Source: a virus
Virus genome (UHGV): UHGV-0379469
Direction: 5' to 3' (one strand)
Length of the DNA: 35,405 nt
Position 1 is the first letter of the stretch. Each line of letters starts with the position of its first letter. Made by a program: the position numbers and the translations under genes. Below the pieces are notes generated by a model. That model had not been told where the DNA came from and searched no databases. It saw only the letters and a program-made list of their open reading frames with translations. Shown here piece by piece: positions 1-35,405 of this stretch.

Positions 1-405
1 ACACCACCAACGGGCTGGCTGAAATGTAACGGTGCAGCATTTTCTTCTGAAATGTATCCCAGACTGGCAAGGGCTTATCCCACCAATAAATTACCGGATT
101 TACGCGGTGAATTTATCCGTGGCTGGGATGATGGGCGCGGGGTGGATGCCGGAAGGGGCATCTTAAGCATGCAGGGGTGGTTAACAGGAAGTCATTATCA
201 TAATATTCGGTCATGGGATGCGTGGGATAACACGGTACTGGTGCCAAATGACAAAGGAGGGGATAGTCTGTTGTCGACAGATAACGCCGTCCGGCAAGGT
301 GCAATTAACGGTAGATTTACCAGTCAATACAGAACGGAATCCTCAGATGGGAATGAAAGCCGCCCACGCAATATTGCCTTCAATTATATTGTGAGAACCG
401 CATAA
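1..405 (+). CDS. H: tail fibre protein H, C-terminal variable (receptor-binding) cassette in the expressed orientation; the 5' part of the same gene is 34215..35405 (wraps the window junction)
   Basis: Reading frame is continuous across the end/start junction (...PVPWSSA|TPPTGWLKCNGAAF...); stop TAA 403-405; C-terminus ...RPRNIAFNYIVRTA matches the end of the silent cassette. Confidence 0.85.
   Translation, partial: TPPTGWLKCNGAAFSSEMYPRLARAYPTNKLPDLRGEFIRGWDDGRGVDAGRGILSMQGWLTGSHYHNIRSWDAWDNTVLVPNDKGGDSLLSTDNAVRQGAINGRFTSQYRTESSDGNESRPRNIAFNYIVRTA
16..137. repeat. inverted repeat, left copy (122-bp perfect core; imperfect homology extends about 35349..35405 and 1..152)
   Basis: Bases 16..137 are the exact reverse complement of 1309..1430 (checked base by base; first mismatches at 15 and 138). 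Confidence 0.9.
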
Positions 406-1016
406 TGAATAACGCGATATTAAATGATGACCTTATTGCCGTACAGGCAGGAAACATCGTCGTTTATAACTATGATGGTGAAACACGGGAATATATTTCC
501 GAATCAACTGAATATCTTGCTGTGGGTGTCGGTATTCCGGCAAATTCCTGTTTAGATGCCCCGGGCGCACATAAAGCGGGCTATGCTATCCGCCGTTCGG
601 AGAATTTAAGTTCATGGGAGTATGCGCCAGACCATCGTGGTGAAACCGTCTATAACACTGACACGGGAAACACCGAAGAAATCACGACGCTGGGTGACTA
701 CCCGAAAAATACAACCACTATCGCCCCGTTAACACCATACGATAAATGGGATGGTGAAAAATGGGTGACAGATACTGAGGCACAACATGGTGCCGCAGTA
801 GAAGCGGCAGAAACCAAGCGCCAGTCACTGGCTGATGCGGCAATGGCTTCCATAAGTCTGATTCAGTTGAAGTTGCAGGCCGGGCGGAAGTTGACGCAGG
901 CAGAAACCACCCGGCTTAACGCCGTGCTGGATTATATAGACGCACTGAACGCAATGGATATAAACATGGCACCAGATATCAACTGGCCGGAAATACCACT
1001 GGCAGCAGTCAGTTGA
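405..1016 (+). CDS. tail fibre assembly chaperone (Tfa; P2 G / Mu U-like)
   Basis: 203-aa ORF; ATG overlaps H stop (TAATG); sits directly 3' of the fibre tip as Tfa genes do. Confidence 0.75.
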   Translation: MNNAILNDDLIAVQAGNIVVYNYDGETREYISESTEYLAVGVGIPANSCLDAPGAHKAGYAIRRSENLSSWEYAPDHRGETVYNTDTGNTEEITTLGDYPKNTTTIAPLTPYDKWDGEKWVTDTEAQHGAAVEAAETKRQSLADAAMASISLIQLKLQAGRKLTQAETTRLNAVLDYIDALNAMDINMAPDINWPEIPLAAVS

Positions 1017-1022
1017 ATATAA

Positions 1023-1502
1023 CTAAGCCGCCCTCACGATATAGTTAAATGCAATATTGCGGGGGCGGGTTTCACTACCACCTGTGTTACCAATACTTCC
1101 TCGTGAATGAAGCGTTGGTGATGGAATCAAACTCCCTCCTGTATTTGTGGCATCAAGCCCCCTGCCTTGTGTATATGTTTTTTTGAAAATCGTGGCCAAC
1201 TCCCATTCATCCTTTGTGTCATATCCATCGTTAGCTACAACAATATGGCGGTGTTTTTCCAACATCCCGGTTTGAATGCTCAATAAAGCGCGTGCTGCAT
1301 CAATTCCTCGCCCATCATCCCAGCCACGGATAAATTCACCGCGTAAATCCGGTAATTTATTGGTGGGATAAGCCCTTGCCAGTCTGGGATACATTTCAGA
1401 AGAAAATGCTGCACCGTTACATTTCAGCCACCCCGTTGGCGGCGTGGCTGAGGGCCATGGAACGGGCACACCAACGGGCAGCGCAGAGCCTTCCCCCAAA
1501 CC
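1023..1502 (-). CDS. silent alternative tail-fibre C-terminal cassette (promoterless; would fuse to H after inversion)
   Basis: Minus-strand ORF whose first ~65 codons repeat the H junction peptide (GLGEGSALPVGVPVPW...RGWDDGRG) then diverge; own stop at 1023-1025; ends ...RPRNIAFNYIVRAA. Confidence 0.7.
   Translation of the reverse strand, partial: GLGEGSALPVGVPVPWPSATPPTGWLKCNGAAFSSEMYPRLARAYPTNKLPDLRGEFIRGWDDGRGIDAARALLSIQTGMLEKHRHIVVANDGYDTKDEWELATIFKKTYTQGRGLDATNTGGSLIPSPTLHSRGSIGNTGGSETRPRNIAFNYIVRAA
1309..1430. repeat. inverted repeat, right copy (perfect core)
   Basis: Exact reverse complement of 16..137. Confidence 0.9.
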
Positions 1503-1516
1503 AACGTTTTCGTTTT
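1491..1516. other. 26-bp hix/gix-like recombination crossover site (right)
   Basis: TTCCCCCAAACCAACGTTTTCGTTTT; its inner 14 bp (TTCCCCCAAACCAA) equal the reverse complement of the inner half of the site at 35335..35360; central AA dinucleotide; lies at the edge of the inverted repeat next to the invertase gene. Confidence 0.7.
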
Positions 1517-1570
1517 TATCCCTACCTATACCAACTATGTATTTTTCACGAAACAAAGAGGATGTTTTTT

Positions 1571-2170
1571 ATGCAAATTGGCTATATTCGTGTGTCAACA
1601 AATGACCAGAACACGGATTTACAACGCAATGCACTGAACTGCGCAGGATGTGAACTGATTTTTGAAGATAAAATCAGCGGAACGAAATCAGCCAGACCGG
1701 GATTGAAAAAACTGCTCAGAACGCTATCAGAAGGAGATACGCTGGTTGTCTGGAAGCTGGACAGACTGGGCAGAAGTATGAAACACCTGATCACGCTTAT
1801 TGAGGAATTGCGAGAAAAAGGTGTTAATTTCCGTAGTCTGACGGACAGCATTGACACATCAACACCCATGGGGCGTTTCTTTTTTCACGTCATGGGGGCT
1901 TTAGCCGAAATGGAACGTGAATTAATTGTAGAGCGTACACTGGCCGGGCTGGCAGCAGCACGCGAACAAGGACGCATTGGCGGACGTCGCCCGAAGTTGA
2001 CAAAAGAACAACACGAGCAAATAGCGAGGCTGATTAAAAACGGTCATGACAGGAAACAACTGGCGATCATTTACGACATCGGCATATCGACGATTTATCG
2101 TTATCACCCTGTAGGCGATATACAGGCTGAAGAAACAACCAGGCAGACTCAGGAAAATGAAAACCGCTAA
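1571..2170 (+). CDS. site-specific DNA invertase, serine recombinase of the Hin/Gin/Cin/Pin family
   Basis: MQIGYIRVSTNDQNTDLQRNAL... N-terminus with catalytic-serine motif, C-terminal HTH; ~199 aa; adjacent to the invertible segment. The ORF-track start at 1376 is an in-frame upstream extension. Confidence 0.9.
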   Translation: MQIGYIRVSTNDQNTDLQRNALNCAGCELIFEDKISGTKSARPGLKKLLRTLSEGDTLVVWKLDRLGRSMKHLITLIEELREKGVNFRSLTDSIDTSTPMGRFFFHVMGALAEMERELIVERTLAGLAAAREQGRIGGRRPKLTKEQHEQIARLIKNGHDRKQLAIIYDIGISTIYRYHPVGDIQAEETTRQTQENENR

Positions 2171-2189
2171 TCTGACCATTAGCGGTTTT
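2161..2189. terminator. bidirectional intrinsic terminator between convergent invertase and U
   Basis: Perfect 10-bp stem AAACCGCTAA/TTAGCGGTTT with 8-nt loop, U-rich on both strands after the stem. Confidence 0.5.
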
Positions 2190-2196
2190 GCGTTAA

Positions 2197-2691
2197 TCAA
2201 AACAGCCCTTTAACGGAGCTGGCCGCGCTGTTAAGGGATGATGTGACCTTATCTTTGAAGCCGGACAGCATATCACTGAACGATGAGGATTGCAGACGCT
2301 CCCGCAAATCCTCATCACAGCGTTCAAGGGTCAGTGAAAATTCTATCTTTTTCGCCTTACCGTAGCGATCAAACTCGGAACGGGTCGTATTCGTTTCAGT
2401 CAGTACATACATGCCGTAAATCTGCCCGACACCATCAATCAGAGGCCAGGGGCGTCCTGTATATGCCTGCGTGGTCAGCAACGAAAGCGACACTTCGCCA
2501 CCTGTAATTTCAGGATAAAGCACGCCGGAAAGCACGATGCGATCATCACCTGCGCCGATATACTGCCAGCTTGCTGAACGGTTAACGCGTTCATTTTTCA
2601 CATGCCGCCAGCTTTTGTTTTGCTGTAACTGCTGATGCGGCAATGTGCGCAGCTCAAAAACAAACATGCCGTAGATCATCATCATGGCCAT
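2197..2691 (-). CDS. U: tail protein U
   Basis: 164-aa ORF immediately 3' of the tape measure gene on the same strand; size and position as P2 gpU. Confidence 0.7.
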   Translation of the reverse strand: MAMMMIYGMFVFELRTLPHQQLQQNKSWRHVKNERVNRSASWQYIGAGDDRIVLSGVLYPEITGGEVSLSLLTTQAYTGRPWPLIDGVGQIYGMYVLTETNTTRSEFDRYGKAKKIEFSLTLERCDEDLRERLQSSSFSDMLSGFKDKVTSSLNSAASSVKGLF

Positions 2692-2697
2692 GACTCC

Positions 2698-5541
2698 TCA
2701 ATCTTTATCGTAAAAACTGCCACGTCCGGCACGGTCGCGTCGTTCCAATTCTGCCCTGACCATTTCACCGACCAGTTTCGCCAGTTCGCGGGGATTCTGT
2801 GTAACAACGTTATGCAGATGAACATGAATTTCACCGCCAAATCCGGAGGCAACAGGCTCCCGGTTACGGGAAGTTGCAGGAGCTGATGCCACTGGCGATC
2901 GTATGGCCTCCGCCACCGGGCGGGAGCTGGCCGCAACAACAGGGACCAGCGCCGGAGGCAGCGGAGCCGGAACCACGGGTGTGATATTAATTGCGGGGGC
3001 AGGCTTACTGACCTGCGCAATCTTCCGCTCCTGCCACTCCCCACGAACAGCAAGTGCGCGGGGCAGGTTCTTAAAGACAATATCGCCGGGGCCAATGCGT
3101 TTTTTCGTCTCATCAACCAGCTTACCTGTGTTATCAGCAATTTTGCTGAGTCTGCGTAGCGTACCGGTATTGCTGTCTGTGAGCGGTTTGTTGTCTTTGG
3201 GCTTATCACCTCCGGTACCATTGCCATTTTCCACAGGCTTCGGCGGATTGATTTTCGCCAGGTCCCCCTGAAGCAAGGCAACCTTGTCCTGAAGAATGGC
3301 CGCACGCTGTGCGTCTTCGATTTTCTTGCGCGCCCTTTCCGCTTCATCCGGAAGCACACCGAGCTTTTCAAGTATCCACGCCAGCGTATCCAGCAACATT
3401 TTTGCAGGTGTCAGAACAAGCTGTAACGCACCGCCAAGAACGTTACCGAATATCTCGCCAGCACTGGTACATTTATCCAGCGTTTCCTTGCTGGACTCCA
3501 TCGGTGACAGCAGCGATTTAAACCAGTTAAACACCTGGCTGATCCCGCTTCCGATTGCGTCAAAAACAGGACCAAACCGTTCAAAGGTTTCGCGCAACGG
3601 GGTCAGCCTTTCCATAATCCCGCTGAACACCCCGGCAAAAAATGCCCTGATGGGATCCCAGTATTTCCAGATGAGAACGGCAGCTCCGGCGAGCGCAGCC
3701 ACAATAAGACCAACCGGACTGAACAACGCCCCGATAGCGCCCCCCAGTAAAGAAACGGAACCCGTCACCATTCCCCACAGCGCAGGCAACACCCTGACGA
3801 CATTCATTGACCGGGTAAGAATGTCAAAACCAAGACGCAGGGTGGCCAGCTTCCCGTAAAGCACCCCAATAACCAGCGACAACGAGCCAATCGTTGCAGT
3901 CATTGCCAGCAACGCACCGCCTGCTATCAGCAGCTGGCGCGTCAGTACCGGATGGGCCTGCGCCAGCGCCGTCACCCTTGATACCACCCGCGTGAGCCAC
4001 TGCGTGACAGAACGCAGCGGACCGTCAATCAGATCTGCAATGCGGATGCGCAACCCTTCCCATGCACTGCCGAGTGATTTCAGATCGCCGTCAAGGTTGT
4101 TGGCCATAACCTTTGCTGTGCGTTCAGCCTCACCGCGCGCGCCTTCAAGTTCTTTTCTCAGTTTGGGTAAGGAACCGTCACCCGCTGCATCAACGAGCGC
4201 CATAAACGATGTGAAAGCCTCTTCTCCGGCAATGTCCTTAAAGAACGATACCCGGTCAACTTCCCCGTATTTGCGGGTGGCTTTATAAAGGTCGGCCAGC
4301 ACATCCTCCATCGGGCGCATTTTGCCCCCGGCATCCGAGACAGACACGCCCAGCTCTTTCAGCGCCTCTGCTGCCGCCTTTGGCGGTGATGCCAGACGAG
4401 CCAGGCTGGCACGCATTGCCGTCCCGGCATCACTTCCCCTGATACCCATATTCGCCAGCACGCCCGCCATCGCTGCGGCCTGCTCCAGCGATATTCCCAG
4501 CTTGCCCGCCACCGGACCTGCATATTTCATGGTTTCGCCCAGTGCGCGAAGGTCAGTGTTGGTACGGGTAAACGCTGCGGTGAGTGTGTCACCGACCCGA
4601 TCCATCTGGTCAGCAGAAAGGCCGAACTGCGTCAGGATATTTGAGCCAATATCTGCCGTCTCGCCGAGATCCATACCGCCAGCCGTTGCCATGCTCAGCA
4701 CGCCGGGAAGCGCAGCCTGAATGGCCTGCGGTGTGAAGCCAGCCATTGCAAGAAATGCCTGTCCACTGGCGGCATCGCCTGCGGTGAACTGCGTTTCAGA
4801 GCCAAGTTTTAACGCCTGCTCACGCAGCGCCTTAAACTGCGGGCTGTTCTGGTCGATTCGCGTCAGTGCCTGAACGCGGGACATCTCTTTGCCGAACCCG
4901 ATCGCAGGCTGCAAAAAACGCCCGGCAGCATAGCCGCCCGCCGCTGCCGCACCAATTGCCAGCGCACCACCTGTTTTCAGTTTTCCCGCTGTTTCCTGCG
5001 CGCGCGAATACCGCTCACGCGCCCGCGTTACACGCGCAAGCGCCTGCCGTTCGCGTTCAAGCTGGTTGTTGTACTGTTCGGTGCGTCTGATGGCCTGCTG
5101 GATGGTGTTATCGCTGCCTGTCAGGGAAATGCCGTGGCGTTTCAGCTCTCCGCCAAGTTCCCGCATTTTCTGAATTTCCCGTGTGCGCGATTCATTCAGG
5201 CGTTCAAGCCGGGTGCTTAACTGCTGCATCAGCTTTTGTTGTTTTTCGCTGAGCACTGTACCCGTGCGTTGTAACTGATTAAGGGCGTTAAGCTGGCGTC
5301 GTGCTTTCAATATGCCAGCATCCGCTTTACTGACAGCGTCACGGGCGCGCTCAAATGAACGCGCCTGACGCTCGAGATTTTTGATCGCCCCCTGCGTTCG
5401 CTGGATGGAGTCACCAAACTGCCCCATCAGGCGGCGGGCGTTTTCGGCAGGCCGGGTCAGCCTGTCAACGGCGCTGAAAGCGACCCGGATGTCAAGAGTC
5501 TTCATTGTCTGCATTCCCGCTGCGAAGTGCCGCCCGCTCAC
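2698..5541 (-). CDS. T: tail tape measure protein T
   Basis: 947-aa ORF, Ala/Gly-rich and coiled-coil N-terminal half with hydrophobic central segments; follows the E/E' chaperone pair; exact start uncertain (alternative Met 27-36 nt downstream). Confidence 0.85.
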   Translation of the reverse strand: MSGRHFAAGMQTMKTLDIRVAFSAVDRLTRPAENARRLMGQFGDSIQRTQGAIKNLERQARSFERARDAVSKADAGILKARRQLNALNQLQRTGTVLSEKQQKLMQQLSTRLERLNESRTREIQKMRELGGELKRHGISLTGSDNTIQQAIRRTEQYNNQLERERQALARVTRARERYSRAQETAGKLKTGGALAIGAAAAGGYAAGRFLQPAIGFGKEMSRVQALTRIDQNSPQFKALREQALKLGSETQFTAGDAASGQAFLAMAGFTPQAIQAALPGVLSMATAGGMDLGETADIGSNILTQFGLSADQMDRVGDTLTAAFTRTNTDLRALGETMKYAGPVAGKLGISLEQAAAMAGVLANMGIRGSDAGTAMRASLARLASPPKAAAEALKELGVSVSDAGGKMRPMEDVLADLYKATRKYGEVDRVSFFKDIAGEEAFTSFMALVDAAGDGSLPKLRKELEGARGEAERTAKVMANNLDGDLKSLGSAWEGLRIRIADLIDGPLRSVTQWLTRVVSRVTALAQAHPVLTRQLLIAGGALLAMTATIGSLSLVIGVLYGKLATLRLGFDILTRSMNVVRVLPALWGMVTGSVSLLGGAIGALFSPVGLIVAALAGAAVLIWKYWDPIRAFFAGVFSGIMERLTPLRETFERFGPVFDAIGSGISQVFNWFKSLLSPMESSKETLDKCTSAGEIFGNVLGGALQLVLTPAKMLLDTLAWILEKLGVLPDEAERARKKIEDAQRAAILQDKVALLQGDLAKINPPKPVENGNGTGGDKPKDNKPLTDSNTGTLRRLSKIADNTGKLVDETKKRIGPGDIVFKNLPRALAVRGEWQERKIAQVSKPAPAINITPVVPAPLPPALVPVVAASSRPVAEAIRSPVASAPATSRNREPVASGFGGEIHVHLHNVVTQNPRELAKLVGEMVRAELERRDRAGRGSFYDKD

Positions 5542-6030
5542 GCCAGCTAACCACTTCGCCGGGCGTCATCATGAAGATTTCGGCGGGCGACCAGTTAAAA
5601 ATGGCGGCAATATCCGCCACCAGATCTTCGATGTGCTCAAAGCACACCAGGGTGATTACGCTGCCGTCTCCTGCACGCTCTTCGCGCCAGAGTCTGGCTC
5701 GCTCATAAAATTTACAGCCACAGCGCACAACTGAATAAAATCGCGTGACGACATTTTTTTAATCATCACTTCATCCAGTCGTGGCGAGGTCACGCGAGGC
5801 AACAGCGTGAACATGGTATCCGCTTTCAGATTCAGCACATCAGACAGCGACAGACCACGCAGGGATCCAGCCTGCTCAATAGCCCCGGTGATCTCCACAT
5901 ACGTGATTTTTTCGCCACCACGCTCAATTGGTCGGGTCAGTTTTACGCCACGTTCGACAGCCATATCCTCACCTGCCGTCACATCATCCGCCACGGTGTT
6001 ATTCCGGGTTTCAGTATCGATGTCTTTCAT
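5492..6030 (-). CDS. tail assembly chaperone E+E' fusion made by programmed -1 ribosomal frameshift
   Basis: The -1 frame is closed by TAA immediately 5' of the A-run and open from it to the stop at 5492-5494, giving ...IKK|NVVTRFYSV... overlapping the start of T. Confidence 0.65.
5656..6030 (-). CDS. E: tail assembly chaperone E
   Basis: 124-aa ORF between tail tube and tape measure genes; contains the A7 slip site near its 3' end. Confidence 0.8.
   Translation of the reverse strand: MKDIDTETRNNTVADDVTAGEDMAVERGVKLTRPIERGGEKITYVEITGAIEQAGSLRGLSLSDVLNLKADTMFTLLPRVTSPRLDEVMIKKMSSRDFIQLCAVAVNFMSEPDSGAKSVQETAA
5754..5760 (-). promoter_or_regulatory. slippery heptanucleotide AAAAAAA for the E/E' -1 frameshift
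   Basis: Seven consecutive A on the coding (minus) strand inside E, at the point where the -1 frame opens. Confidence 0.6.
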
Positions 6031-6085
6031 CAGTTGTCTCCTTTTCAGTCAGAGGCGACGCACTGCGCCGCCTGCATATTACTTA

Positions 6086-6598
6086 TCAGCCAAGCCCAAG
6101 CGCGGAACGGATACGGTCAGGCACAATGTCCTTGCCGTCCTTCCGGTAGATGTGGTTCAACAGGTCGATTTCCCACAGCGGGCGATCGTTAACGCTCAGC
6201 TTGTAGTAGGTGTTTTTGACAGCGTAAGTGTGTGATGTGGCTTCGCCCTGTTTGGCTTCCCCCATATCAATTTCCGTCACACGCCCACGCATCTCGATTT
6301 CATACAGATCGCTTTCTGCATCGGTGTAGTATTCACCCGCAAAACGCAGCAGCGTGCCGTCAATCGTGCCGCCATATTTAAGGAACAGCGCACGAACAGC
6401 TCCCCCCATGACAAAACTCGCATCAAGCGCGGAGTCGTCCAGACCGAGATCAATACTTACCGCCCCCATCATGCCACCACCACGATAGCTGTCGGTTTTG
6501 CGCGTCAGTTTGGGCGGCGTGACGGATGTCACTTTACCCACTTCGTTTTCACCATCCACAAACAACGTAAAAAAGCGAAGATGTTTTGGTACAGCCAT
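6086..6598 (-). CDS. FII: tail tube protein FII
   Basis: 170-aa ORF directly after the sheath gene; stop/start juxtaposed with FI at 6598. Confidence 0.85.
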   Translation of the reverse strand: MAVPKHLRFFTLFVDGENEVGKVTSVTPPKLTRKTDSYRGGGMMGAVSIDLGLDDSALDASFVMGGAVRALFLKYGGTIDGTLLRFAGEYYTDAESDLYEIEMRGRVTEIDMGEAKQGEATSHTYAVKNTYYKLSVNDRPLWEIDLLNHIYRKDGKDIVPDRIRSALGLG

Positions 6599-7782
6599 CA
6601 GGCACCTCCCAGCACCGCAAATGCGGGACCAAAGAATTCATCAGTAAACGTCTGGTAAAGCTCCATGTCTTCCAGTGGCGGAACGGGCGTATATTTGTAG
6701 CGAATACGCACACGCCCCTGACGTAAATCCGTGGTGCCGTTATCCACCACGTCATACCAGCACTCCGCGCCAATCAGTTTCCCGGCAGTAACCAGCGAAT
6801 CCAGTTTTGCCCTGATGGCACTGATAACATCCTTCACGTTCGCAGGCGTCAGTGGACTGTCGATGGTTTCAAACTGCGCTTCCGCAATTGAATCAGCCAG
6901 CACCTGTGCGGTTCGGGTATACACCTCAAAGATGTAGGCGTTCGTTTCCGGTGTGCGGTTGCCCCAGAAGCGGAACCCGTTGCGACGAATAATGGTCGTG
7001 ATTTCTTTGTTGTTGAGGCTGTTGGCATCGCTGTCTTCGGCCTGCAACGACCAGAACACATGCCTCGACATCCCCAGCACATTTTTAACCGGAACGTTGG
7101 ACAGTGATTTGTGCCAGCCCTGCTCATGGTCAATGTACGCACGAAGGCCGCACGCATAGGCAGGCGCGGGGAACGTTTCGTTTTTGCCACTTTTCGGGTT
7201 GTAGGCGATGAAGTCCGGCCATAAGAGCATCACCTCACGTTCGTTGAATTTCTGGCGATAGGTAATCGCCTCAGCCATCGTGTTACAGCCGTGACATGAG
7301 GCATACACAAACGCGCGCAGTTTACCTGCAATCACGCACAGGGATTTTGTTACAGCCTCCGTGTCCAGCTCCGGCGCGGCCAGAATACGCGGACGGTATC
7401 CGATGCTTTCATCCTGCTCTGCAACAAGCAGCGCATACATCCCCGTATAGCTGCCGTCATCCTCAGAACCACCGATAACCAGTTGATCCTGCGTCTTTCC
7501 GTCTTCTTCTTTGTGTTCAGCCACGCGAACGACGATCACCTTTGTGCTCACCTGGTCTGAGATGGCCTTAAGCGCACGATAAAGCGTCCCCGTTGTTCCG
7601 CATTTTCCCAGCACGTCATTGACGCGGGTCAGCAGTGTGGGCTTGTTCAGCGGGAACAGCTTCGCGTCCGCATCATCCGCCGTTGCCACGATACCGATAA
7701 CGCTGGAATCAACATCGTTAATCGCTGTTACCAGGTCGGTATTTTCCGTAACACGGGCACCATGAAAACGAGTTTCACTCAT
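6598..7782 (-). CDS. FI: contractile tail sheath protein FI
   Basis: 394-aa ORF with motifs recalled from P2 sheath protein (…GFRFWGNRT…, …YTPVPPLE…). Confidence 0.9.
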   Translation of the reverse strand: MSETRFHGARVTENTDLVTAINDVDSSVIGIVATADDADAKLFPLNKPTLLTRVNDVLGKCGTTGTLYRALKAISDQVSTKVIVVRVAEHKEEDGKTQDQLVIGGSEDDGSYTGMYALLVAEQDESIGYRPRILAAPELDTEAVTKSLCVIAGKLRAFVYASCHGCNTMAEAITYRQKFNEREVMLLWPDFIAYNPKSGKNETFPAPAYACGLRAYIDHEQGWHKSLSNVPVKNVLGMSRHVFWSLQAEDSDANSLNNKEITTIIRRNGFRFWGNRTPETNAYIFEVYTRTAQVLADSIAEAQFETIDSPLTPANVKDVISAIRAKLDSLVTAGKLIGAECWYDVVDNGTTDLRQGRVRIRYKYTPVPPLEDMELYQTFTDEFFGPAFAVLGGA

Positions 7783-7939
7783 AGCTTCAGCCCCTTGTAT
7801 CCGTTAAATGATTCAGCAACAATCATCACCCACCACGCGCGTAATCTCACCCCTGCGCTATTCTCCCGCCACGGCGACAACAAAAAGCAGTAACCCCCTC
7901 CGCACGCACATGCGACCATGCCGCACAGGGAGGGAACAG

Positions 7940-9169: not shown

Positions 9170-10192
9170 TTAATACGCATTTAATTTAAATTTGTATTTG
9201 CTTTCTATGTAATGGATAAATTCAATTATGCTTTTTTCTATCGCGTCTAATATATGAATATATCCATCCCGATTTAAGGTCCTATCCAACTCAAAATGAT
9301 GAACTATCCCATGTCTATATTGTATGATTTCAGAAATTCGATTCTCAAGGTAATCAACTGATTTTCCAATTCTTTTTTTCTTATAAAGAATCGCTCTCAC
9401 ATCTATATCTAGCCACTCTTTATATGCTTTGTTTAGGAGGGTTAAGTTTTGAAAAGTGTAATTTCTTGCAATAACACTTTCTATTGAAATATTTCCTTTC
9501 TCTATCTCAAGCAGAATATCAAAATCAACTTTTTGCTTATACGATGTTCTTTTTGCTATTGCGAAAGGATCGTACTTTATAAGTATTTGAAAAGCTCTAG
9601 AGAAAAAATATTCAAACATAGCAACCGCAAAAGGTACTAATCCATTATATATAACTCTACTGGGATCCATACATTGCATATCATCAAAGTATTCGGATAA
9701 GCCGCCATCTTCCGGCAGGTTTAATTTAATAGAAGGTTCAGGTAAGGCATGTTTAACAGCGGAAATCTCATGATGAACATGATTAAATATTGAAGAAATG
9801 CCACGACTGATCGGACTACTAGAATCCCCCCATAGAGGAGCGTATCTATTTTTCCCATAATCACCTATAAGTGTTCCACCAAAAAGACTCCTTGCGCCTT
9901 TTAGAACATCATTAAGCATTTTTACATCATGCCAACTAGCGCTAGATAAATTACGCACATGCAATGCCCATTTATTACCAGATATGTGTAGTTCGTCATT
10001 TGAAACAGGATATATATCAGCCGAAACTCCATCTGTAGATTTGAAGTCCGTATCATCAAACCAAGAGTAATTTAACGTTCCTTGGGGCCATTCCCACAAA
10101 TGTTTACACCTTTTAAAACCTAAATTTTCAAGATAATTTTTAAGTTCGTTTCTAGTTGCTTTTTTAGGGTACAGCGTTATATCTCTTCCCAT
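9170..10192 (-). CDS. hypothetical protein, AT-rich cargo gene; candidate anti-phage defence or abortive-infection protein
   Basis: 340-aa ORF with AGGTG RBS; much more AT-rich than the flanking phage genes; convergent with D and divergent from ogr; C-terminal RHGIVHH fits the Rx4-6H HEPN motif; no family recognised. Confidence 0.6.
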   Translation of the reverse strand: MGRDITLYPKKATRNELKNYLENLGFKRCKHLWEWPQGTLNYSWFDDTDFKSTDGVSADIYPVSNDELHISGNKWALHVRNLSSASWHDVKMLNDVLKGARSLFGGTLIGDYGKNRYAPLWGDSSSPISRGISSIFNHVHHEISAVKHALPEPSIKLNLPEDGGLSEYFDDMQCMDPSRVIYNGLVPFAVAMFEYFFSRAFQILIKYDPFAIAKRTSYKQKVDFDILLEIEKGNISIESVIARNYTFQNLTLLNKAYKEWLDIDVRAILYKKKRIGKSVDYLENRISEIIQYRHGIVHHFELDRTLNRDGYIHILDAIEKSIIEFIHYIESKYKFKLNAY

Positions 10193-11110: not shown

Positions 11111-11407
11111 ATGAGTGAAATGGTATTTTGTCGCGGATGCGGCAAGGAAATACATAAAGATGCCACATCCTGCCCCAATTGTGGAGCACCTCAAAGAACA
11201 GCAAGTTCAAAAAGCAGAATGACAGCCGCACTACTGGCTTTCTTTTTAGGTGGTCTTGGTGCACACAAATTTTATTTAGGTAAAGTGGGGCAAGGATTCC
11301 TTTACCTTATTTTTTGCTGGACATTCATTCCGGCAATCGTGGCATTTATTGAGTTTTTTATCTATCTATGCACCTCTGATGAAGATTTCGCCCGCAAATA
11401 TGGCTGA
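11111..11407 (+). CDS. zinc-ribbon + TM2-domain small membrane protein (cargo)
   Basis: N-terminal CxxC...CPNC zinc ribbon followed by two hydrophobic helices (LLAFFLGGLGAHKFYLG...) typical of TM2-domain proteins. Confidence 0.7.
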   Translation: MSEMVFCRGCGKEIHKDATSCPNCGAPQRTASSKSRMTAALLAFFLGGLGAHKFYLGKVGQGFLYLIFCWTFIPAIVAFIEFFIYLCTSDEDFARKYG

Positions 11408-20324: not shown

Positions 20325-21284
20325 ATGAAAATTTGTATCGACGACGGCTCCACCAACATCAAGCTGGCATGGACTGAGAACGGCGAACGCCGCAACGCCA
20401 TCAGCCCGAACAGCTTCAAGTCGGAATGGTCTGCGCCGTTCGGTGGCACGCAGCCCGCGAACTACATGCTTGATAGCGTGCGCTATGGTTTTGATCCGGT
20501 CAGCGATCGCTTTGTCCAGACGACTGACACGCAATATCAGTACAGTGATGTGAATGTCATTGCCATTCATCACGCGCTGGTCAAATCAGGCATCACGCCA
20601 CAGGAGGTGGATGTGGTTGTCACCCTGCCACTGAGCGAGTATTTCGACACAAACGCACAGCCGGACATGGCCAACATCAACCGCAAAAAAGCGAACGTTA
20701 TGCGCCCGGTGGAATACCAGAACGGCGAAGCATTCACTATCCGTAATGTACGGGTTATGCCTGAATCCATTCCGGCTGGCTTTAAGGCACTGGCTGACAT
20801 GAGTCCGTTTGAATCCCTGCTGATTGTGGATTTAGGCGGAACCACGCTGGATGTGGCAAAGGTTCAGGGACAACTGGCAGGTATCAGCCAGGTGTTTTGC
20901 GATCCACACGTAGGCGTTTCCCTGATGGCCGATGCCGTACTGTCGGTGATGGCCACTAACGGTATGCGTACCAGTCACCACATCGCCAATACCATTATTG
21001 AGCACCGTCACGATGAAGCCTGGCTGCGCCAGCACATTCACAATGACGCGCATTACAACAGCCTGATGGCGGTTATTCGTGAAAAGGAGGAGACACTGAA
21101 ACAACGAGTGATCCGCGCGCTGGCGGGTTTTTCCGGTTACGGGCGGGTGATGGTTGTCGGTGGAGGGGCGGAGATTGTGGCACCCGCTATCCGCGAAGCC
21201 TGCGGAGTTAATGCGACTTTCATCGCGGACGGGGTGCCACAATTTGCTCTGGTTAATGGGCTGTACGCAATGAACAAGGAGTAA
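20325..21284 (+). CDS. parM: ParM/StbA actin-like partition ATPase
   Basis: MKICIDDGSTNIKLAW... N-terminus and ...DLGGTTLD..., ...VMVVGGGAE..., ...LVNGLYAM motifs aligning with plasmid R1 ParM as recalled. Confidence 0.8.
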   Translation: MKICIDDGSTNIKLAWTENGERRNAISPNSFKSEWSAPFGGTQPANYMLDSVRYGFDPVSDRFVQTTDTQYQYSDVNVIAIHHALVKSGITPQEVDVVVTLPLSEYFDTNAQPDMANINRKKANVMRPVEYQNGEAFTIRNVRVMPESIPAGFKALADMSPFESLLIVDLGGTTLDVAKVQGQLAGISQVFCDPHVGVSLMADAVLSVMATNGMRTSHHIANTIIEHRHDEAWLRQHIHNDAHYNSLMAVIREKEETLKQRVIRALAGFSGYGRVMVVGGGAEIVAPAIREACGVNATFIADGVPQFALVNGLYAMNKE

Positions 21285-21288
21285 ACCA

Positions 21289-21600
21289 ATGACGACACCA
21301 ACCAGAAGAATAAGTTTCTATCTGAAGCCAGCTGCCGTCAAGAACGAAGGAGAAGCATGCGCCTGGCTGGACAGCCTTACACCAGAAGCCCGCAAAAGCG
21401 GCCAACGCGTGGCTTTTCTGGCCGGGCTGGCACTTCTGAAGACGAATCCGGCAGAGGCTTACCGACTGGCCGCATGGGCTGATGATGAGATGTTACCTGT
21501 GACACAAATCAGCTCAAAAAAGTTTGAAGCACAGTCTGCACCAGTGGCTAAGATAACCAGCCAGATGGCTGGGAATATCCGGGCGTTATTTCCTGAGTAA
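21289..21600 (+). CDS. parR: ParR/StbB-like partition adaptor (DNA-binding)
   Basis: 103 aa directly after parM; RRISFYLKP...LAGLALL...RALFPE pattern resembles ParR. Confidence 0.6.
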   Translation: MTTPTRRISFYLKPAAVKNEGEACAWLDSLTPEARKSGQRVAFLAGLALLKTNPAEAYRLAAWADDEMLPVTQISSKKFEAQSAPVAKITSQMAGNIRALFPE

Positions 21601-33617: not shown

Positions 33618-34218
33618 TTCGTTGTTACCACCATCAGCCAGCAATTTCATGCGTTGTGCCGAAGCCGTCGGAACACGCATTACAGACATTCCGGTAGACC
33701 TCAACACGCTGTGGTCGCCGGACACCTGCCCGGTGCATCTGCTGCCTTATCTCGCCTGGGCGTTTTCCGTTGACCGCTGGGATCGCAACTGGCCGGAAGA
33801 GACAAAGCGACAGGTGATTCGTGATGCATGGCTGATACACCGACACAAAGGGACCATCAGCGCACTGCGAAGAGCCGTGGAGCCTCTCGGCTACCTGATT
33901 GAAGTAAAGGAGTGGTGGCAACTCAACGAGGAGCCAGGAACATTTCGCATTGTTGTCGGAGTACTTGATCAGGGCATCACCGATGAAATGTATCAGGAAC
34001 TTGAGCGCCTTATTGCGGATGCAAAACCAGTAAGTCGCCATCTGACGGGGCTGGCGATCAGCCTGAGTGTGAACGGAAAGATTTTCGTTGGTACGGGATG
34101 CTATCACGGCGATGCCCTGACGGTTTATCCCTACACCCCGGAGTCCATTATTGTCGAAGGGGATTATTTCCCTGCCCCGGCCATTCATTTAATTGATAAT
34201 CTGAGAGTAAACGCATGA
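33610..34218 (+). CDS. I: baseplate / tail protein I
   Basis: MSNSLLPPSAS...LNTLWSPDTCPVHLLPYLAWAFSVDRWD... as in P2 gpI; start overlaps J stop. Confidence 0.8.
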   Translation: MSNSLLPPSASNFMRCAEAVGTRITDIPVDLNTLWSPDTCPVHLLPYLAWAFSVDRWDRNWPEETKRQVIRDAWLIHRHKGTISALRRAVEPLGYLIEVKEWWQLNEEPGTFRIVVGVLDQGITDEMYQELERLIADAKPVSRHLTGLAISLSVNGKIFVGTGCYHGDALTVYPYTPESIIVEGDYFPAPAIHLIDNLRVNA

Positions 34219-35405
34219 CAGTGAAATACTACGCCATTCTGACTAATCAGGGCGCGGCACGACTGGCTAACGCGACGATGCTCGGCAGTAAGCTGAATCT
34301 GACGCAAATGGCCGTTGGTGATGCAAATGGTGTGTTACCAACACCAGACCCTGCACAAACAAAACTGATTAACCAGAAACGCATTGCACCGCTGAATCTT
34401 CTGAGTGTTGACCCTAACAATCAGAGCCAGATTATTGCGGAGCAAATCATCCCTGAAAACGAGGGAGGATTCTGGATCCGTGAGATTGGTCTTTATGATG
34501 ATGAAGGTGTACTCATTGCGGTGGCAAACTGCCCGGAAACGTACAAACCGCAGTTGCAGGAAGGCAGTGGACGCACCCAGACTATCCGCATGATTCTGGT
34601 TGTCACGAACACCGAAGCCATCACGCTGAAAATCGACCCGTCTGTGGTTCTGGCAACCCGCAAATATGTGGATGATAAAATCTCAGAGCACGAACAGTCA
34701 CGACGTCACCCGGACGCCTCGCTGACCGTAAAAGGTTTTACTCAGTTAAGCAGTGCAATTAACAGTGAATCAGAAACACTGGCCGCAACACCGAAAGCGG
34801 TTAAGGCTGCATATGACCTGGCTAACGGGAAATATACCGCCCAGAACGCCACCACTACACAAAAAGGGATTGTTCAGCTCAGTAGCGCCACGAACAGCAC
34901 GTCTGAAACGCTGGCAGCGACACCAAAAGCTGTTAAGGCGGTAATGGATGAAACGAACAAGAAAGCACCATTAAACAGCCCGGCACTGACCGGAACGCCA
35001 ACAACACCAACAGCGCCACAGGGGACTAATAGTACCCAGATCGCAAGCACGGCTTTCGTTATGGCCGCGATTGCCGCACTTGTAGATTCGTCACCTGATG
35101 CACTGAACACGCTGAATGAACTGGCTGCGGCGCTGGGCAATGACCCGAATTTTGCGACCACCATGACTAACGCGCTTGCGGGTAAGCAACCGAAGGATGC
35201 CACCCTGACGGCGCTGGCAGAGCTTGCTACATCAGCAGATAAACTCCCATATTTTACAGGGGCAGATCGTGCCGCGTTAACCGCGTTGACAAGTGTTGGA
35301 CGTGCCATTCTTGGTAAAACCAGCACTCAGGGAGTTCTTGATTACCTTGGTTTGGGGGAAGGCTCTGCACTGCCCGTTGGTGTGCCCGTTCCGTGGTCCT
35401 CAGCA
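34215..35405 (+). CDS. H: tail fibre protein H, N-terminal constant part (continues at 1..405 across the circular junction)
   Basis: ATG 34215 overlaps I stop; internal tandem repeat QLSSA.NS.SETLAATPKAVKA x2; no stop before the window end and in frame with bases 1..405. Confidence 0.9.
   Translation, partial: MTVKYYAILTNQGAARLANATMLGSKLNLTQMAVGDANGVLPTPDPAQTKLINQKRIAPLNLLSVDPNNQSQIIAEQIIPENEGGFWIREIGLYDDEGVLIAVANCPETYKPQLQEGSGRTQTIRMILVVTNTEAITLKIDPSVVLATRKYVDDKISEHEQSRRHPDASLTVKGFTQLSSAINSESETLAATPKAVKAAYDLANGKYTAQNATTTQKGIVQLSSATNSTSETLAATPKAVKAVMDETNKKAPLNSPALTGTPTTPTAPQGTNSTQIASTAFVMAAIAALVDSSPDALNTLNELAAALGNDPNFATTMTNALAGKQPKDATLTALAELATSADKLPYFTGADRAALTALTSVGRAILGKTSTQGVLDYLGLGEGSALPVGVPVPWSSA
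35335..35360. other. 26-bp hix/gix-like recombination crossover site (left)
   Basis: TTCTTGATTACCTTGGTTTGGGGGAA: 18 of 26 positions match the Salmonella hixL consensus as recalled (TTCTTGAAAACCAAGGTTTTTGATAA); inner half is the reverse complement of the inner half of 1491..1516. Confidence 0.7.

What the first reader, a model, noticed from the sequence alone, without database searches (positions are those of the whole stretch)
405..1502. Asymmetric invertible segment: two fibre tips but a single tail-fibre assembly gene
Mu G and e14 P segments carry a chaperone for each orientation. Here only the expressed cassette has a downstream tfa (405..1016). The silent cassette ends 6 bp from the tfa stop on the other strand, so after inversion tfa would be antisense. 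Either the second tip folds without a chaperone, uses the same chaperone from another transcript, or is non-functional.
Basis: partly seen in the sequence, partly recalled or inferred. Interest (0 to 1): 0.45.

Follow-up and report, generated by a model that had tools for sequence, protein, structure and literature searches.

The report
Two fibre tips, one shared chaperone
A prophage DNA switch swaps between two tail-fibre tips but carries only one fibre-assembly chaperone gene; this is the smallest form of an already described multi-tip switch family, and the second tip is clearly kept functional by selection, although how it gets its chaperone is unresolved.

Summary
The window is a circularly permuted P88-like (P2-family) prophage. 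Its fibre gene (34215..35405 + 1..405) runs into a 1559-bp invertible segment bounded by two hix/gix-like sites. The segment holds tip1, one tfa and a tail-to-tail silent tip2, with a Pin/Min-like invertase next to it. Inversion gives an in-frame 537-aa fibre with tfa antisense. There is no second tfa anywhere in the 35 kb.

It is not unusual. The same block (about 97% identical) is in 146 complete E. coli genomes, in both orientations. The EPEC E2348/69 copy was shown experimentally to flip. Relatives in prophages and p15B-Min-like P1 plasmids carry 2-9 such tips and still one tfa.

Both tips are the same gp37-like collar class. Near-identical tfa genes follow at least 15 different collar tips elsewhere, so this chaperone is generic for the class. 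In e14, the two chaperones serve two different tip classes.

Tip2 is not a pseudogene. Its tfa-antisense lineage is a separate synonymous clade under strong purifying selection (3 nonsynonymous against 18 synonymous changes).

How tip2 fibres fold with tfa antisense is unresolved: either trans or low-level supply, or Tfa is dispensable. This is a new member of a known kind, of moderate interest.

The parts
34215..35405 (+). Constant 5' part of tail-fibre gene H. It runs off the window end and continues at position 1, because the window is circularly permuted.
   Evidence: ATG at 34215. The joined translation gives a 531-aa ORF with Phage_tail_fib (E=2e-62), Phage_fiber_2 repeats and a Collar domain.
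35335..35360 (+). Left crossover site, TTCTTGATTACC|TT|GGTTTGGGGGAA (12-2-12, hix/gix/mix-like), inside the H reading frame.
   Evidence: Homology between the two repeat arms begins exactly at the central TT. It is one of only two matches in the window.
1..405 (+). Tip1 cassette, the currently expressed C-terminal end of H. The conserved collar N-part is 1..~173 and the variable insert with an HYH motif is ~174..360. It ends in the C-terminal strand RPRNIAFNYIVRTA, with the stop at 403..405.
   Evidence: PDB hits are 9cuy short tail fibre (1e-17) and the T4 gp37 tip 2XGF (4e-14). In every related locus where this tip type occurs, a sense tfa follows it directly.
405..1016 (+). tfa, the only tail-fibre assembly gene of the genome (203 aa). 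Its start overlaps the tip1 stop (TAATG).
   Evidence: Pfam Caudo_TAP E=6e-33. It is the only hit in the six-frame scan. It is 78.5% identical to e14 TfaE and 72-84% identical to tfa genes that follow five other collar-tip types.
1017..1022 (.). 6-bp spacer between the convergent stop codons of tfa and tip2. There is no crossover site here, so tip2 and tfa stay tail-to-tail permanently.
   Evidence: The junction GCGGCTTA(G/A)TTATA(T/C)TCAACTG is conserved in all arrays examined.
1023..1502 (-). Tip2 cassette (silent in this orientation). It is collar-class with an HRH motif and ends ETRPRNIAFNYIVRAA. After inversion it fuses in frame to H.
   Evidence: Pfam Collar E=1e-14. PDB 2XGF 2e-17, including the C-terminal NIAFNYIVR strand. 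In-frame fusion gives 537 aa. Purifying selection is shown.
1273..1507 (-). Right arm of the ~235-nt inverted repeat. It encodes the shared collar N-part.
   Evidence: (pairs I1 and I2) and the alignment.
1491..1516 (+). Right crossover site, TTCCCCCAAACC|AA|CGTTTTCGTTTT.
   Evidence: The same site and downstream leader are conserved in all multi-cassette relatives.
1571..2170 (+). Serine DNA invertase (199 aa), Pin/Min-like. It is co-oriented with H, and no strong terminator lies between them.
   Evidence: Pfam Resolvase E=2e-51 plus HTH_7 E=1e-12. GYIRVST catalytic motif. 82% identical to PinE. The N-terminal 60 aa are identical to the invertases of the multi-cassette arrays.
2160..2189 (.). 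Bidirectional hairpin terminator between the invertase and the convergent tail operon (gpU, tape measure and so on, on the minus strand).
   Evidence: (12-bp stem followed by a T run on the minus strand) and the sequence.

Best explanation
This is a working two-state tail-fibre switch, the minimal two-cassette form of the Pin/Min-type multiple-inversion arrays.

A Pin-like serine invertase recombines two 26-bp sites. One site lies inside fibre gene H and the other lies next to the invertase gene. Recombination flips 1559 bp and exchanges the last ~150 codons of H between tip1 and tip2.

Both tips are small T4-gp37-like collar modules. Each has a conserved collar N-part, an ~80-aa variable insert with an HxH motif, and a conserved C-terminal strand.

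The single tfa is a lambda-Tfa/TfaE-type chaperone that is generic for this tip class. It is not a private partner of tip1. It is simply hard-wired behind one cassette, so the design is one chaperone per tip class rather than one per orientation.

Tip2 is a real, selected alternative tip. In the tip2-ON state, tfa is antisense to the late fibre transcript. Tip2 fibres must therefore mature without a co-transcribed tfa.

My preferred reading, about 40%, is that the chaperone is diffusible and is supplied from other transcripts in small amounts. Possible sources are weak transcription of the tip1-tfa unit, or sister genome copies flipped late in infection when the invertase is read through from the fibre operon. 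The alternative, about 30%, is that Tfa only improves yield and tip2 can trimerise without it.

Shown here: the anatomy, the in-frame switch, both states occurring in nature, the class-generic pairing of the chaperone, and selection on tip2. Inferred: that tip2-ON virions are infectious, and the route of chaperone supply.
For: Anatomy and in-frame switch.

Invertase identity.

Both orientations in near-identical prophages. H::tip2 occurs as one contiguous match in STEC1589/1590, ETEC6335, 266917_2 and GF66.2 (annotation). H::tip1 occurs in D72, KOr024, AR_0013 and E2348/69 CP059840. Two assemblies of E2348/69 differ by one inversion. Goldberg 2014 showed by sequencing and PCR that this very locus (NC_011601.1 1891695-1893703) flips among four variants.

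One tfa for many tips. At least 19 IMG/VR and genome loci have 2-9 collar cassettes and exactly one tfa. All 40 E. coli records listed show one tfa. P1-like plasmids show the same. A p15B-min-like region has 7 cassettes and one tfaE.

Class-generic chaperone. Near-identical tfa genes directly follow tip types t0, t3, t7, t15 and H1, and the 60%-identity tfa cluster follows at least 15 tip clusters. Where a non-collar tip is present, a second, different tfa class accompanies it (e14; plasmid L088).

Tip2 is selected. Against tip2 copies that are followed by a sense tfa, dN is 0.009 and dS is 0.81. The tfa-antisense copies form their own synonymous clade, at least 0.5 dS from any other. Within it there are 3 nonsynonymous against 18 synonymous changes (binomial P=3e-9). 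The median dN/dS within the clade is 0.07.
Against: No transcript source for tfa in the tip2-ON state was found. There are no sigma-70-like promoters on either strand of 1..2800. The convergent tail operon ends at a hairpin terminator. A TGT-N12-ACA dyad at 1538..1555 has the wrong spacing for a leftward P2-type late promoter and is no more frequent than chance.

The same tip2 protein is followed by a conserved sense tfa in 24 P2-like loci. This argues that it normally uses the chaperone.

No plaque-isolated phage with this convergent junction is in the phage collection, so infectivity of the tip2-ON state is not documented.

The selection evidence is comparative. It could be inflated if cassettes are occasionally replaced from unsampled functional copies.
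Confidence: 0.6

Rival explanations
1. Tip2, and collar tips generally, fold without any Tfa. The tfa gene is needed only by, or only improves the yield of, the cassette it is coupled to, so its orientation is irrelevant for tip2.
For: Tip2 is permanently tail-to-tail with tfa in every array, yet it is under strong purifying selection. No promoter for tfa was found in the inverted state. The arrays occur in two unrelated phage backbones with different late regulation, P88-like and P1-like, so any expression trick would have to be self-contained. T4 gp12 has the same collar domain, and from textbook knowledge it does not use a gp38/Tfa-type chaperone.
Against: Every array retains exactly one intact tfa, and cassette types are interchangeable between coupled, free and convergent positions. 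Examples are t5, t0 and t3. There is therefore no 'special' Tfa-dependent type. The same tip2 protein keeps a conserved sense tfa in 24 P2-like loci. From the literature (my own knowledge), gp37-type tips classically need gp38 or Tfa.
Confidence: 0.3
2. The tip2-ON state is a dead end. Tfa is required in cis-sense, so tip2-ON cells release fibre-defective particles. The cost is tolerated because inversion re-creates the productive state in the lysogen population.
For: tfa is antisense and apparently promoterless in that state. Collar tips are otherwise almost always followed by a sense tfa across species. Prophage orientation is not under selection while the prophage is silent, so finding both states in genomes does not prove function.
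Against: A cassette that can never yield a working fibre should decay. Instead the convergent-context tip2 lineage is monophyletic at synonymous sites and shows dN/dS of about 0.04-0.07. All copies examined are intact.
Confidence: 0.15
3. The silent cassette is a decayed pseudogene left behind after its own tfa was deleted.
For: Symmetrical relatives with two convergent tfa genes exist (L041, L073, L077, L079). P88_4B11 also has two.
Against: The ORF is intact and in frame with H after inversion. It is 97-98% identical in protein to tips in active contexts despite dS of about 0.8. The convergent junction is old and conserved across diverged arrays, so it is not a recent deletion scar.
Confidence: 0.02

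Closest known systems
Min multiple-inversion system of plasmid p15B (Sandmeier, Iida, Arber 1990-92) and the min-like C-segments of P1/P7-like plasmids
   Same: Pin/Min-type invertase with an identical leader region. Tightly packed collar-class 3' cassettes, each starting with a crossover site. One tfaE-like 203-aa gene sits tail-to-tail with one cassette. The tips and the tfa share 82-91% nucleotide identity with the plasmid copies.
   Different: Only two sites and two cassettes here, against six sites in p15B (from the literature, my own knowledge). The host backbone is a P88-like integrated myovirus, not a P1-like plasmid prophage. The original p15B papers could not be read here, and the p15B sequence itself was not compared.
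P2-like prophage 'shufflon' of EPEC E2348/69 (Goldberg et al. 2014, PMC4272514)
   Same: The same prophage type and the same locus, about 97% identical. It has the same tip1-tfa-tip2 core and the same invertase. Flipping was demonstrated experimentally.
   Different: E2348/69 has a third cassette and a third site, giving four variants. That paper does not discuss the chaperone.
e14 P segment of E. coli K-12 (and the Mu G / P1 C segments)
   Same: The invertase is 82% identical to PinE and the Tfa is 78.5% identical to TfaE. stfE is a collar-class tip 58-59% identical to tip1 and tip2. The site lies in the same LGLGEG motif.
   Different: e14 is symmetrical: tip > tfa > < tfa < tip. Its two tips belong to different classes, each with its own chaperone class (TfaE 200 aa, TfaP 137 aa). 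The window has two tips of one class and one chaperone.
T4 gp37 distal tip with gp38, and lambda Tfa
   Same: Collar N-part, HxH motif and C-terminal NIAFNYIVR strand (PDB 2XGF). The chaperone belongs to the lambda Tfa family (HK97 tfa is 83% identical at the nucleotide level).
   Different: The tips here carry only an ~80-aa insert instead of the long gp37 needle and head.

Membership tests
Din-family serine invertase switch (Gin/Cin/Hin/Pin/Min) | Small serine recombinase: resolvase catalytic domain with an active-site Ser, plus a C-terminal HTH | tested here: met
   Pfam Resolvase 2e-51 and HTH_7 1e-12. GYIRVST motif. 82% identical to PinE.
Din-family serine invertase switch (Gin/Cin/Hin/Pin/Min) | Two 26-bp crossover sites (12-2-12) in inverted orientation bounding the segment, one next to the invertase gene | tested here: met
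   Sites at 35335..35360 and 1491..1516. Arm homology starts at the central dinucleotide. These are the only two matches, against 0.23 expected.
Din-family serine invertase switch (Gin/Cin/Hin/Pin/Min) | Inversion exchanges alternative 3' ends of a fibre gene in frame | tested here: met
   531-aa and 537-aa isoforms with the same Pfam architecture.
Din-family serine invertase switch (Gin/Cin/Hin/Pin/Min) | The segment actually inverts | tested here: met
   Both orientations occur in 96-98% identical prophages. The homologous E2348/69 locus was shown to flip. This was not shown for this exact sequence.
Din-family serine invertase switch (Gin/Cin/Hin/Pin/Min) | Fis-dependent recombinational enhancer in the 5' part of the invertase gene | not tested
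   No tool-based test was made.
Min-type multiple-inversion array | More than two crossover sites, giving overlapping invertible segments and more than two alternative tips | tested here: not met
   The window has only two sites and two cassettes. Close relatives have 3-9 cassettes. The window is therefore a minimal relative, not a multiple-inversion system itself.
Min-type multiple-inversion array | Collar-class cassettes sharing one tfaE-like gene that lies tail-to-tail with one cassette | tested here: met
Min-type multiple-inversion array | Invertase orthologous to Min of p15B | tested here: inconclusive
   The N-terminal 60 aa and the leader are identical to the invertases of min-like P1 plasmids. 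The p15B Min sequence itself was not available.
Symmetrical G/C/P-type segment (one chaperone per orientation) | Two convergent tfa genes, one behind each alternative tip | tested here: not met
   There is a single tfa in the whole circular genome and no sense tfa after inversion.
Tail fibre assembly protein (Caudo_TAP, lambda Tfa / TfaE) | Sequence family membership and a position directly downstream of, and overlapping, the fibre gene | tested here: met
   PF02413 E=6e-33. TAATG overlap. 78.5% identical to TfaE.
Tail fibre assembly protein (Caudo_TAP, lambda Tfa / TfaE) | Chaperone activity on the fibre tip | not testable with these tools
   This needs co-expression or genetics.
gp37-like collar tip | Collar domain N-part, HxH motif, and a C-terminal strand returning to the collar | tested here: met
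   Pfam Collar. PDB 2XGF, 9cuy and gp12. HYH and HRH motifs and the RPRNIAFNYIVR ending are read directly from the sequence.
Intramolecular-chaperone fibre tips (Peptidase_S74 type) | A C-terminal auto-cleaved chaperone domain | tested here: not met
   No such Pfam domain is present. Both isoforms end at the collar strand.

The most novel reading that the evidence does not exclude
Collar-class fibre tips in Min-type arrays are matured by one class-generic chaperone whose supply does not depend on its orientation relative to the fibre gene, or they need no chaperone at all. Either case would overturn the working rule that each alternative tip needs its own co-transcribed Tfa. One possible self-contained supply mechanism is a late burst of invertase, read through from the fibre operon, that mixes orientations among replicating genome copies.
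Probability: 0.4. Interest if true: 0.5.

Novelty: new member of a known kind. Interest (0 to 1): 0.35.

Why it matters
Fibre engineering and host-range prediction usually assume that every receptor-binding tip must travel with its cognate chaperone. These arrays suggest that, for one common tip class in E. coli prophages and P1-like plasmids, a single generic chaperone is enough, possibly in trans or not at all. That would simplify tip swapping.

It also identifies a concrete unsolved problem: how a tip that is permanently tail-to-tail with its only chaperone gene stays functional. This can be tested with one invertase deletion and one tfa deletion in a well-studied strain, EPEC E2348/69.

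Tried and rejected
- Second tfa. A six-frame profile scan of the circularised window and an ORF scan of the simulated inverted state found none.
- Intramolecular chaperone domain. None found.
- Promoter for tfa in the inverted state. There are no sigma-70-like sites in 1..2800. The TGT-N12-ACA dyad at 1538..1555 is conserved in Min-type leaders. However, the pattern is no more frequent than chance in the window (7 found against 8.9 expected), and its spacing to any -10 element is wrong for a leftward P2 late promoter.
- Read-through from the convergent FI-U tail operon. It is blocked by a hairpin terminator at 2160..2189, and this geometry is absent from the P1-like arrays.
- Recent deletion of a second tfa. 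Rejected, because the 6-bp junction is conserved among arrays separated by dS 0.34-0.5.
- Palindrome-avoidance idea. Convergent tfa pairs in symmetrical loci are only about 62% identical at the nucleotide level. This fits the idea that identical convergent copies are not tolerated, but it is only weak support.
- Plaque-isolated phage with the convergent junction. None in the phage collection.
- Exact junction pattern in species-representative genomes. Zero hits.
- Original p15B papers and the North et al. 2019 Tfa structure paper. Not held.
- PDB search with Tfa. No significant hit.
- Structure prediction of tip-Tfa complexes. Not attempted, because the tool predicts single chains only and does not accept constructed sequences.
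Full report
**Observation**

An ORF ending at 405 is followed by tfa at 405..1016 (203 aa, Pfam Caudo_TAP E=6e-33), with the start and stop overlapping as TAATG. Six base pairs after the tfa stop, a minus-strand ORF ends at 1023. That ORF carries a Phage Tail Collar domain.

A serine invertase (Resolvase plus HTH_7, GYIRVST motif) follows at 1571..2170.

The inverted repeat continues across the window ends: 35344..35405+1..173 against 1273..1507, about 235 nt at 90-93% identity. The fibre gene H starts at 34215.

Homology between the two arms begins exactly at the central dinucleotide of two 26-bp hix/gix-like sites. These are TTCTTGATTACC|TT|GGTTTGGGGGAA at 35335..35360 and TTCCCCCAAACC|AA|CGTTTTCGTTTT at 1491..1516. 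They are the only two such sites in the window, against 0.23 expected by chance.

Simulated inversion of the 1559-bp segment replaces the 531-aa fibre with an in-frame 537-aa fibre ending in tip2. It places tfa antisense, with no tfa-like ORF downstream in sense. A profile built from 134 Tfa sequences finds only one tfa in all six frames of the circularised window (E=5e-99; next best E=1).

**Genomic setting**

Gene order matches the P88-like phages (Xuanwuvirus). It runs J, I, H, the invertible segment, the invertase, and then gpU, tape measure, E, FII and FI on the opposite strand, followed by D. P88_4B11 itself has a symmetrical segment with two tfa genes.

**How common it is, and whether it flips**

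Window 1..1560 is at least 80% covered in 146 of 5426 complete E. coli genomes, at up to 98% identity. All 40 listed records have exactly one tfa under the match, together with 2-4 'phage tail protein' features.

- D72 is colinear with the window.
- E2348/69 has a third cassette.
- EC9 has four tips, with tfa antisense to the expressed fibre.

A query built as H-constant plus tip2 matches as a single contiguous piece in STEC1589/1590, ETEC6335, 266917_2 and GF66.2. In STEC1590, RefSeq annotates H::tip2 > tfa < tip1 < invertase >. The H plus tip1 query matches contiguously in KOr024, D72, AR_0013, E2348/69 (CP059840) and Br_178.

Two assemblies of E2348/69 differ by one inversion. Goldberg et al. 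2014 showed by sequencing and PCR that a P2-like prophage locus of E2348/69 with three repeats flips among four coexisting variants. Their supplement places it at NC_011601.1 1891695-1893703 and 1892127-1893703, which is the locus homologous to the window. That paper does not discuss the chaperone.

**The wider family**

A survey of 80 IMG/VR loci found with the variable part of tip2 was mapped for collar tips, tfa genes and invertases. At least 19 loci hold 2-9 tightly packed collar cassettes and exactly one tfa. They occur both in P88-like prophages and in P1-like plasmid prophages.

These arrays share one invertase type, with the N-terminal 60 aa identical and the same leader. 240 plasmid records, mostly P1-like, carry the module, mostly with one tfa and up to six cassettes.

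A published P7-like plasmid has a C-segment reported as 99% identical to the min region of p15B. Its gene table lists seven small cassettes, one 612-nt tfaE and pin. The window is therefore the minimal two-cassette relative of the Min-type arrays. I could not read the original p15B papers.

In every array, one cassette is coupled upstream of tfa (t1, t5, t21, t27). One cassette is tail-to-tail with tfa (tip2-type t0, or t3, t43), with no site between them. The convergent cassette can therefore never be co-oriented with tfa.

**What the tips and the chaperone are**

Both tips match the T4 gp37 distal tip (PDB 2XGF). For tip2 the match includes the C-terminal NIAFNYIVR strand. Both also match the gp12 collar and a recently solved short tail fibre, 9cuy, over their whole length.

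Each tip has one HxH motif. Both full-length isoforms have identical Pfam architecture and no intramolecular chaperone domain.

The window Tfa is 78.5% identical to e14 TfaE. It is 72-84% identical to tfa genes that directly follow tip types t0, t3, t7, t15 and H1 in P2-like loci, and those tfa genes are nearly identical to one another. The 60%-identity tfa cluster follows at least 15 different collar-tip clusters. Across species, a collar tip followed directly by a sense tfa is the norm.

Where a non-collar tip is present, a second, unrelated short tfa accompanies it. In e14, collar-class stfE pairs with TfaE and the non-collar StfP tip pairs with TfaP. In plasmid L088, several collar cassettes and one TfaE-like gene face a second tfa and a non-collar tip.

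The rule that fits the data is one chaperone per tip class, not one per orientation.

**Is tip2 functional?**

The tip2 variable part (93 codons) was collected from 41 loci. In 24 loci it is directly followed by a sense tfa, and in 14 it is convergent with tfa.

- The window copy against the tfa-coupled copies gives dN 0.009 and dS about 0.8.
- Within the convergent group, the window against L024 shows 3 nonsynonymous against 18 synonymous differences (binomial P=3e-9 under neutrality).
- The median dN/dS within the convergent group is 0.07.
- At synonymous sites the convergent copies form their own clade of three sublineages (dS 0.34-0.51), each at least 0.5 dS from any non-convergent copy sampled.
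- The convergent junction sequence is conserved among them, and homology to the coupled copies stops at the stop codon.

Tip2 has therefore evolved for a long time in the tfa-antisense position under strong protein-level constraint. This rules out a pseudogene. It also argues against a state that never produces a working fibre.

**The unresolved step**

If tip2-ON phage are functional, the fibre matures without a co-transcribed tfa. I looked for a source of tfa transcripts in that state and found none.

- There are no sigma-70-like promoters in 1..2800.
- A TGT-N12-ACA dyad at 1538..1555 is no commoner than chance and is wrongly spaced for a leftward P2 late promoter.
- A hairpin terminator at 2160..2189 closes the convergent tail operon.

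The invertase is co-oriented with H and has no strong terminator before it. It is therefore probably read through late in infection. A late burst of inversion among genome copies is a possible self-contained source of Tfa, but that is speculation.

Against complete independence from the chaperone: every array keeps one intact tfa, cassette types are interchangeable between positions, and the same tip2 protein keeps a conserved sense tfa in P2-like loci.

My estimates are:
- about 40% that Tfa is supplied in trans or at low level;
- about 30% that Tfa is dispensable or only improves yield for tip2;
- about 15% that tip2-ON is a dead end;
- about 2% that tip2 is a pseudogene.

**Verdict**

This is a new member of a known kind: a two-cassette Pin/Min-type fibre switch, whose three-cassette sister locus in E2348/69 has been shown to flip.

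The point that remains interesting is the chaperone problem, which the literature I could read has not addressed. It is testable with an invertase deletion and a tfa deletion. Interest is 0.35.

Noticed in passing
window 34215..35405 joined to 1..405: The window is a circular permutation of a complete 35.4-kb P88-like prophage genome. The break falls inside the inverted repeat of the fibre switch, as would happen if an assembler broke the contig at the invertible repeat.
   Followed up: yes
window 2197..7782 (minus strand) and 7783..7807: The tail block FI-FII-E-T-U is inverted relative to P2 and converges on the invertase. Only 25 bp separate the FI start from the divergent D start, so there is no obvious room for a late promoter for either. 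P88_4B11 and the E. coli relatives have the same order.
   Followed up: partly
window 1538..1555: A perfect TGT-N12-ACA dyad (the P2 Ogr-box pattern) lies between the right crossover site and the invertase ATG. It is conserved, with internal changes, in all Min-type arrays, including those on P1-like plasmids. Its function is unknown, and the pattern count in the window is at chance level.
   Followed up: partly
window 20325..21600: ParM-like (StbA_N/ParM, E=8e-82) and plasmid-stability StbB-like (E=1e-23) genes sit between the replication gene A and the portal/terminase genes of an integrase-bearing prophage.
   Followed up: no
window 9170..10192 (minus strand): A 340-aa ORF next to gene D has a weak, sub-threshold RiboL-PSP HEPN hit (E=2e-4). 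It may be defence cargo in a P2-type hotspot.
   Followed up: no
window 11111..11407: A small zinc-ribbon plus TM2-domain membrane protein (TM2 E=5e-19) lies near the integrase.
   Followed up: no
L020 4135..9398 (IMG/VR 2541047915_000010): A mirrored arrangement: invertase < tip2 > tfa < tip1 < | tip1 > tfa > tip2 < H <. This is an inverted duplication of the whole core. It could be an assembly artefact of a flipping locus or a real palindromic duplication.
   Followed up: no
L097, L098, L104, L109 (Photorhabdus genomes), about 4400..6600: The fibre gene is followed by a second short collar-domain ORF and then one tfa, all on one strand, with no invertase detected within the locus.
   Followed up: no
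L003 ~6425, L044 ~3854, L061 ~9336, L062 ~4597, L064 ~5645: In P1-like arrays a second stretch, about 61-63% identical to the invertase N-terminus, lies just beyond the invertase. This is reminiscent of the truncated invertase gene reported next to min in p15B (from memory of the literature).
   Followed up: no
window 990..1016 and the alignment: Tfa proteins of the single-tfa arrays end in ...WPE(I/M)PLAA(V/I/A)S. Tfa proteins that follow tips in symmetrical P2-like segments end in ...WPELPEA. The different tail lies in the part of tfa that abuts the convergent cassette.
   Followed up: no
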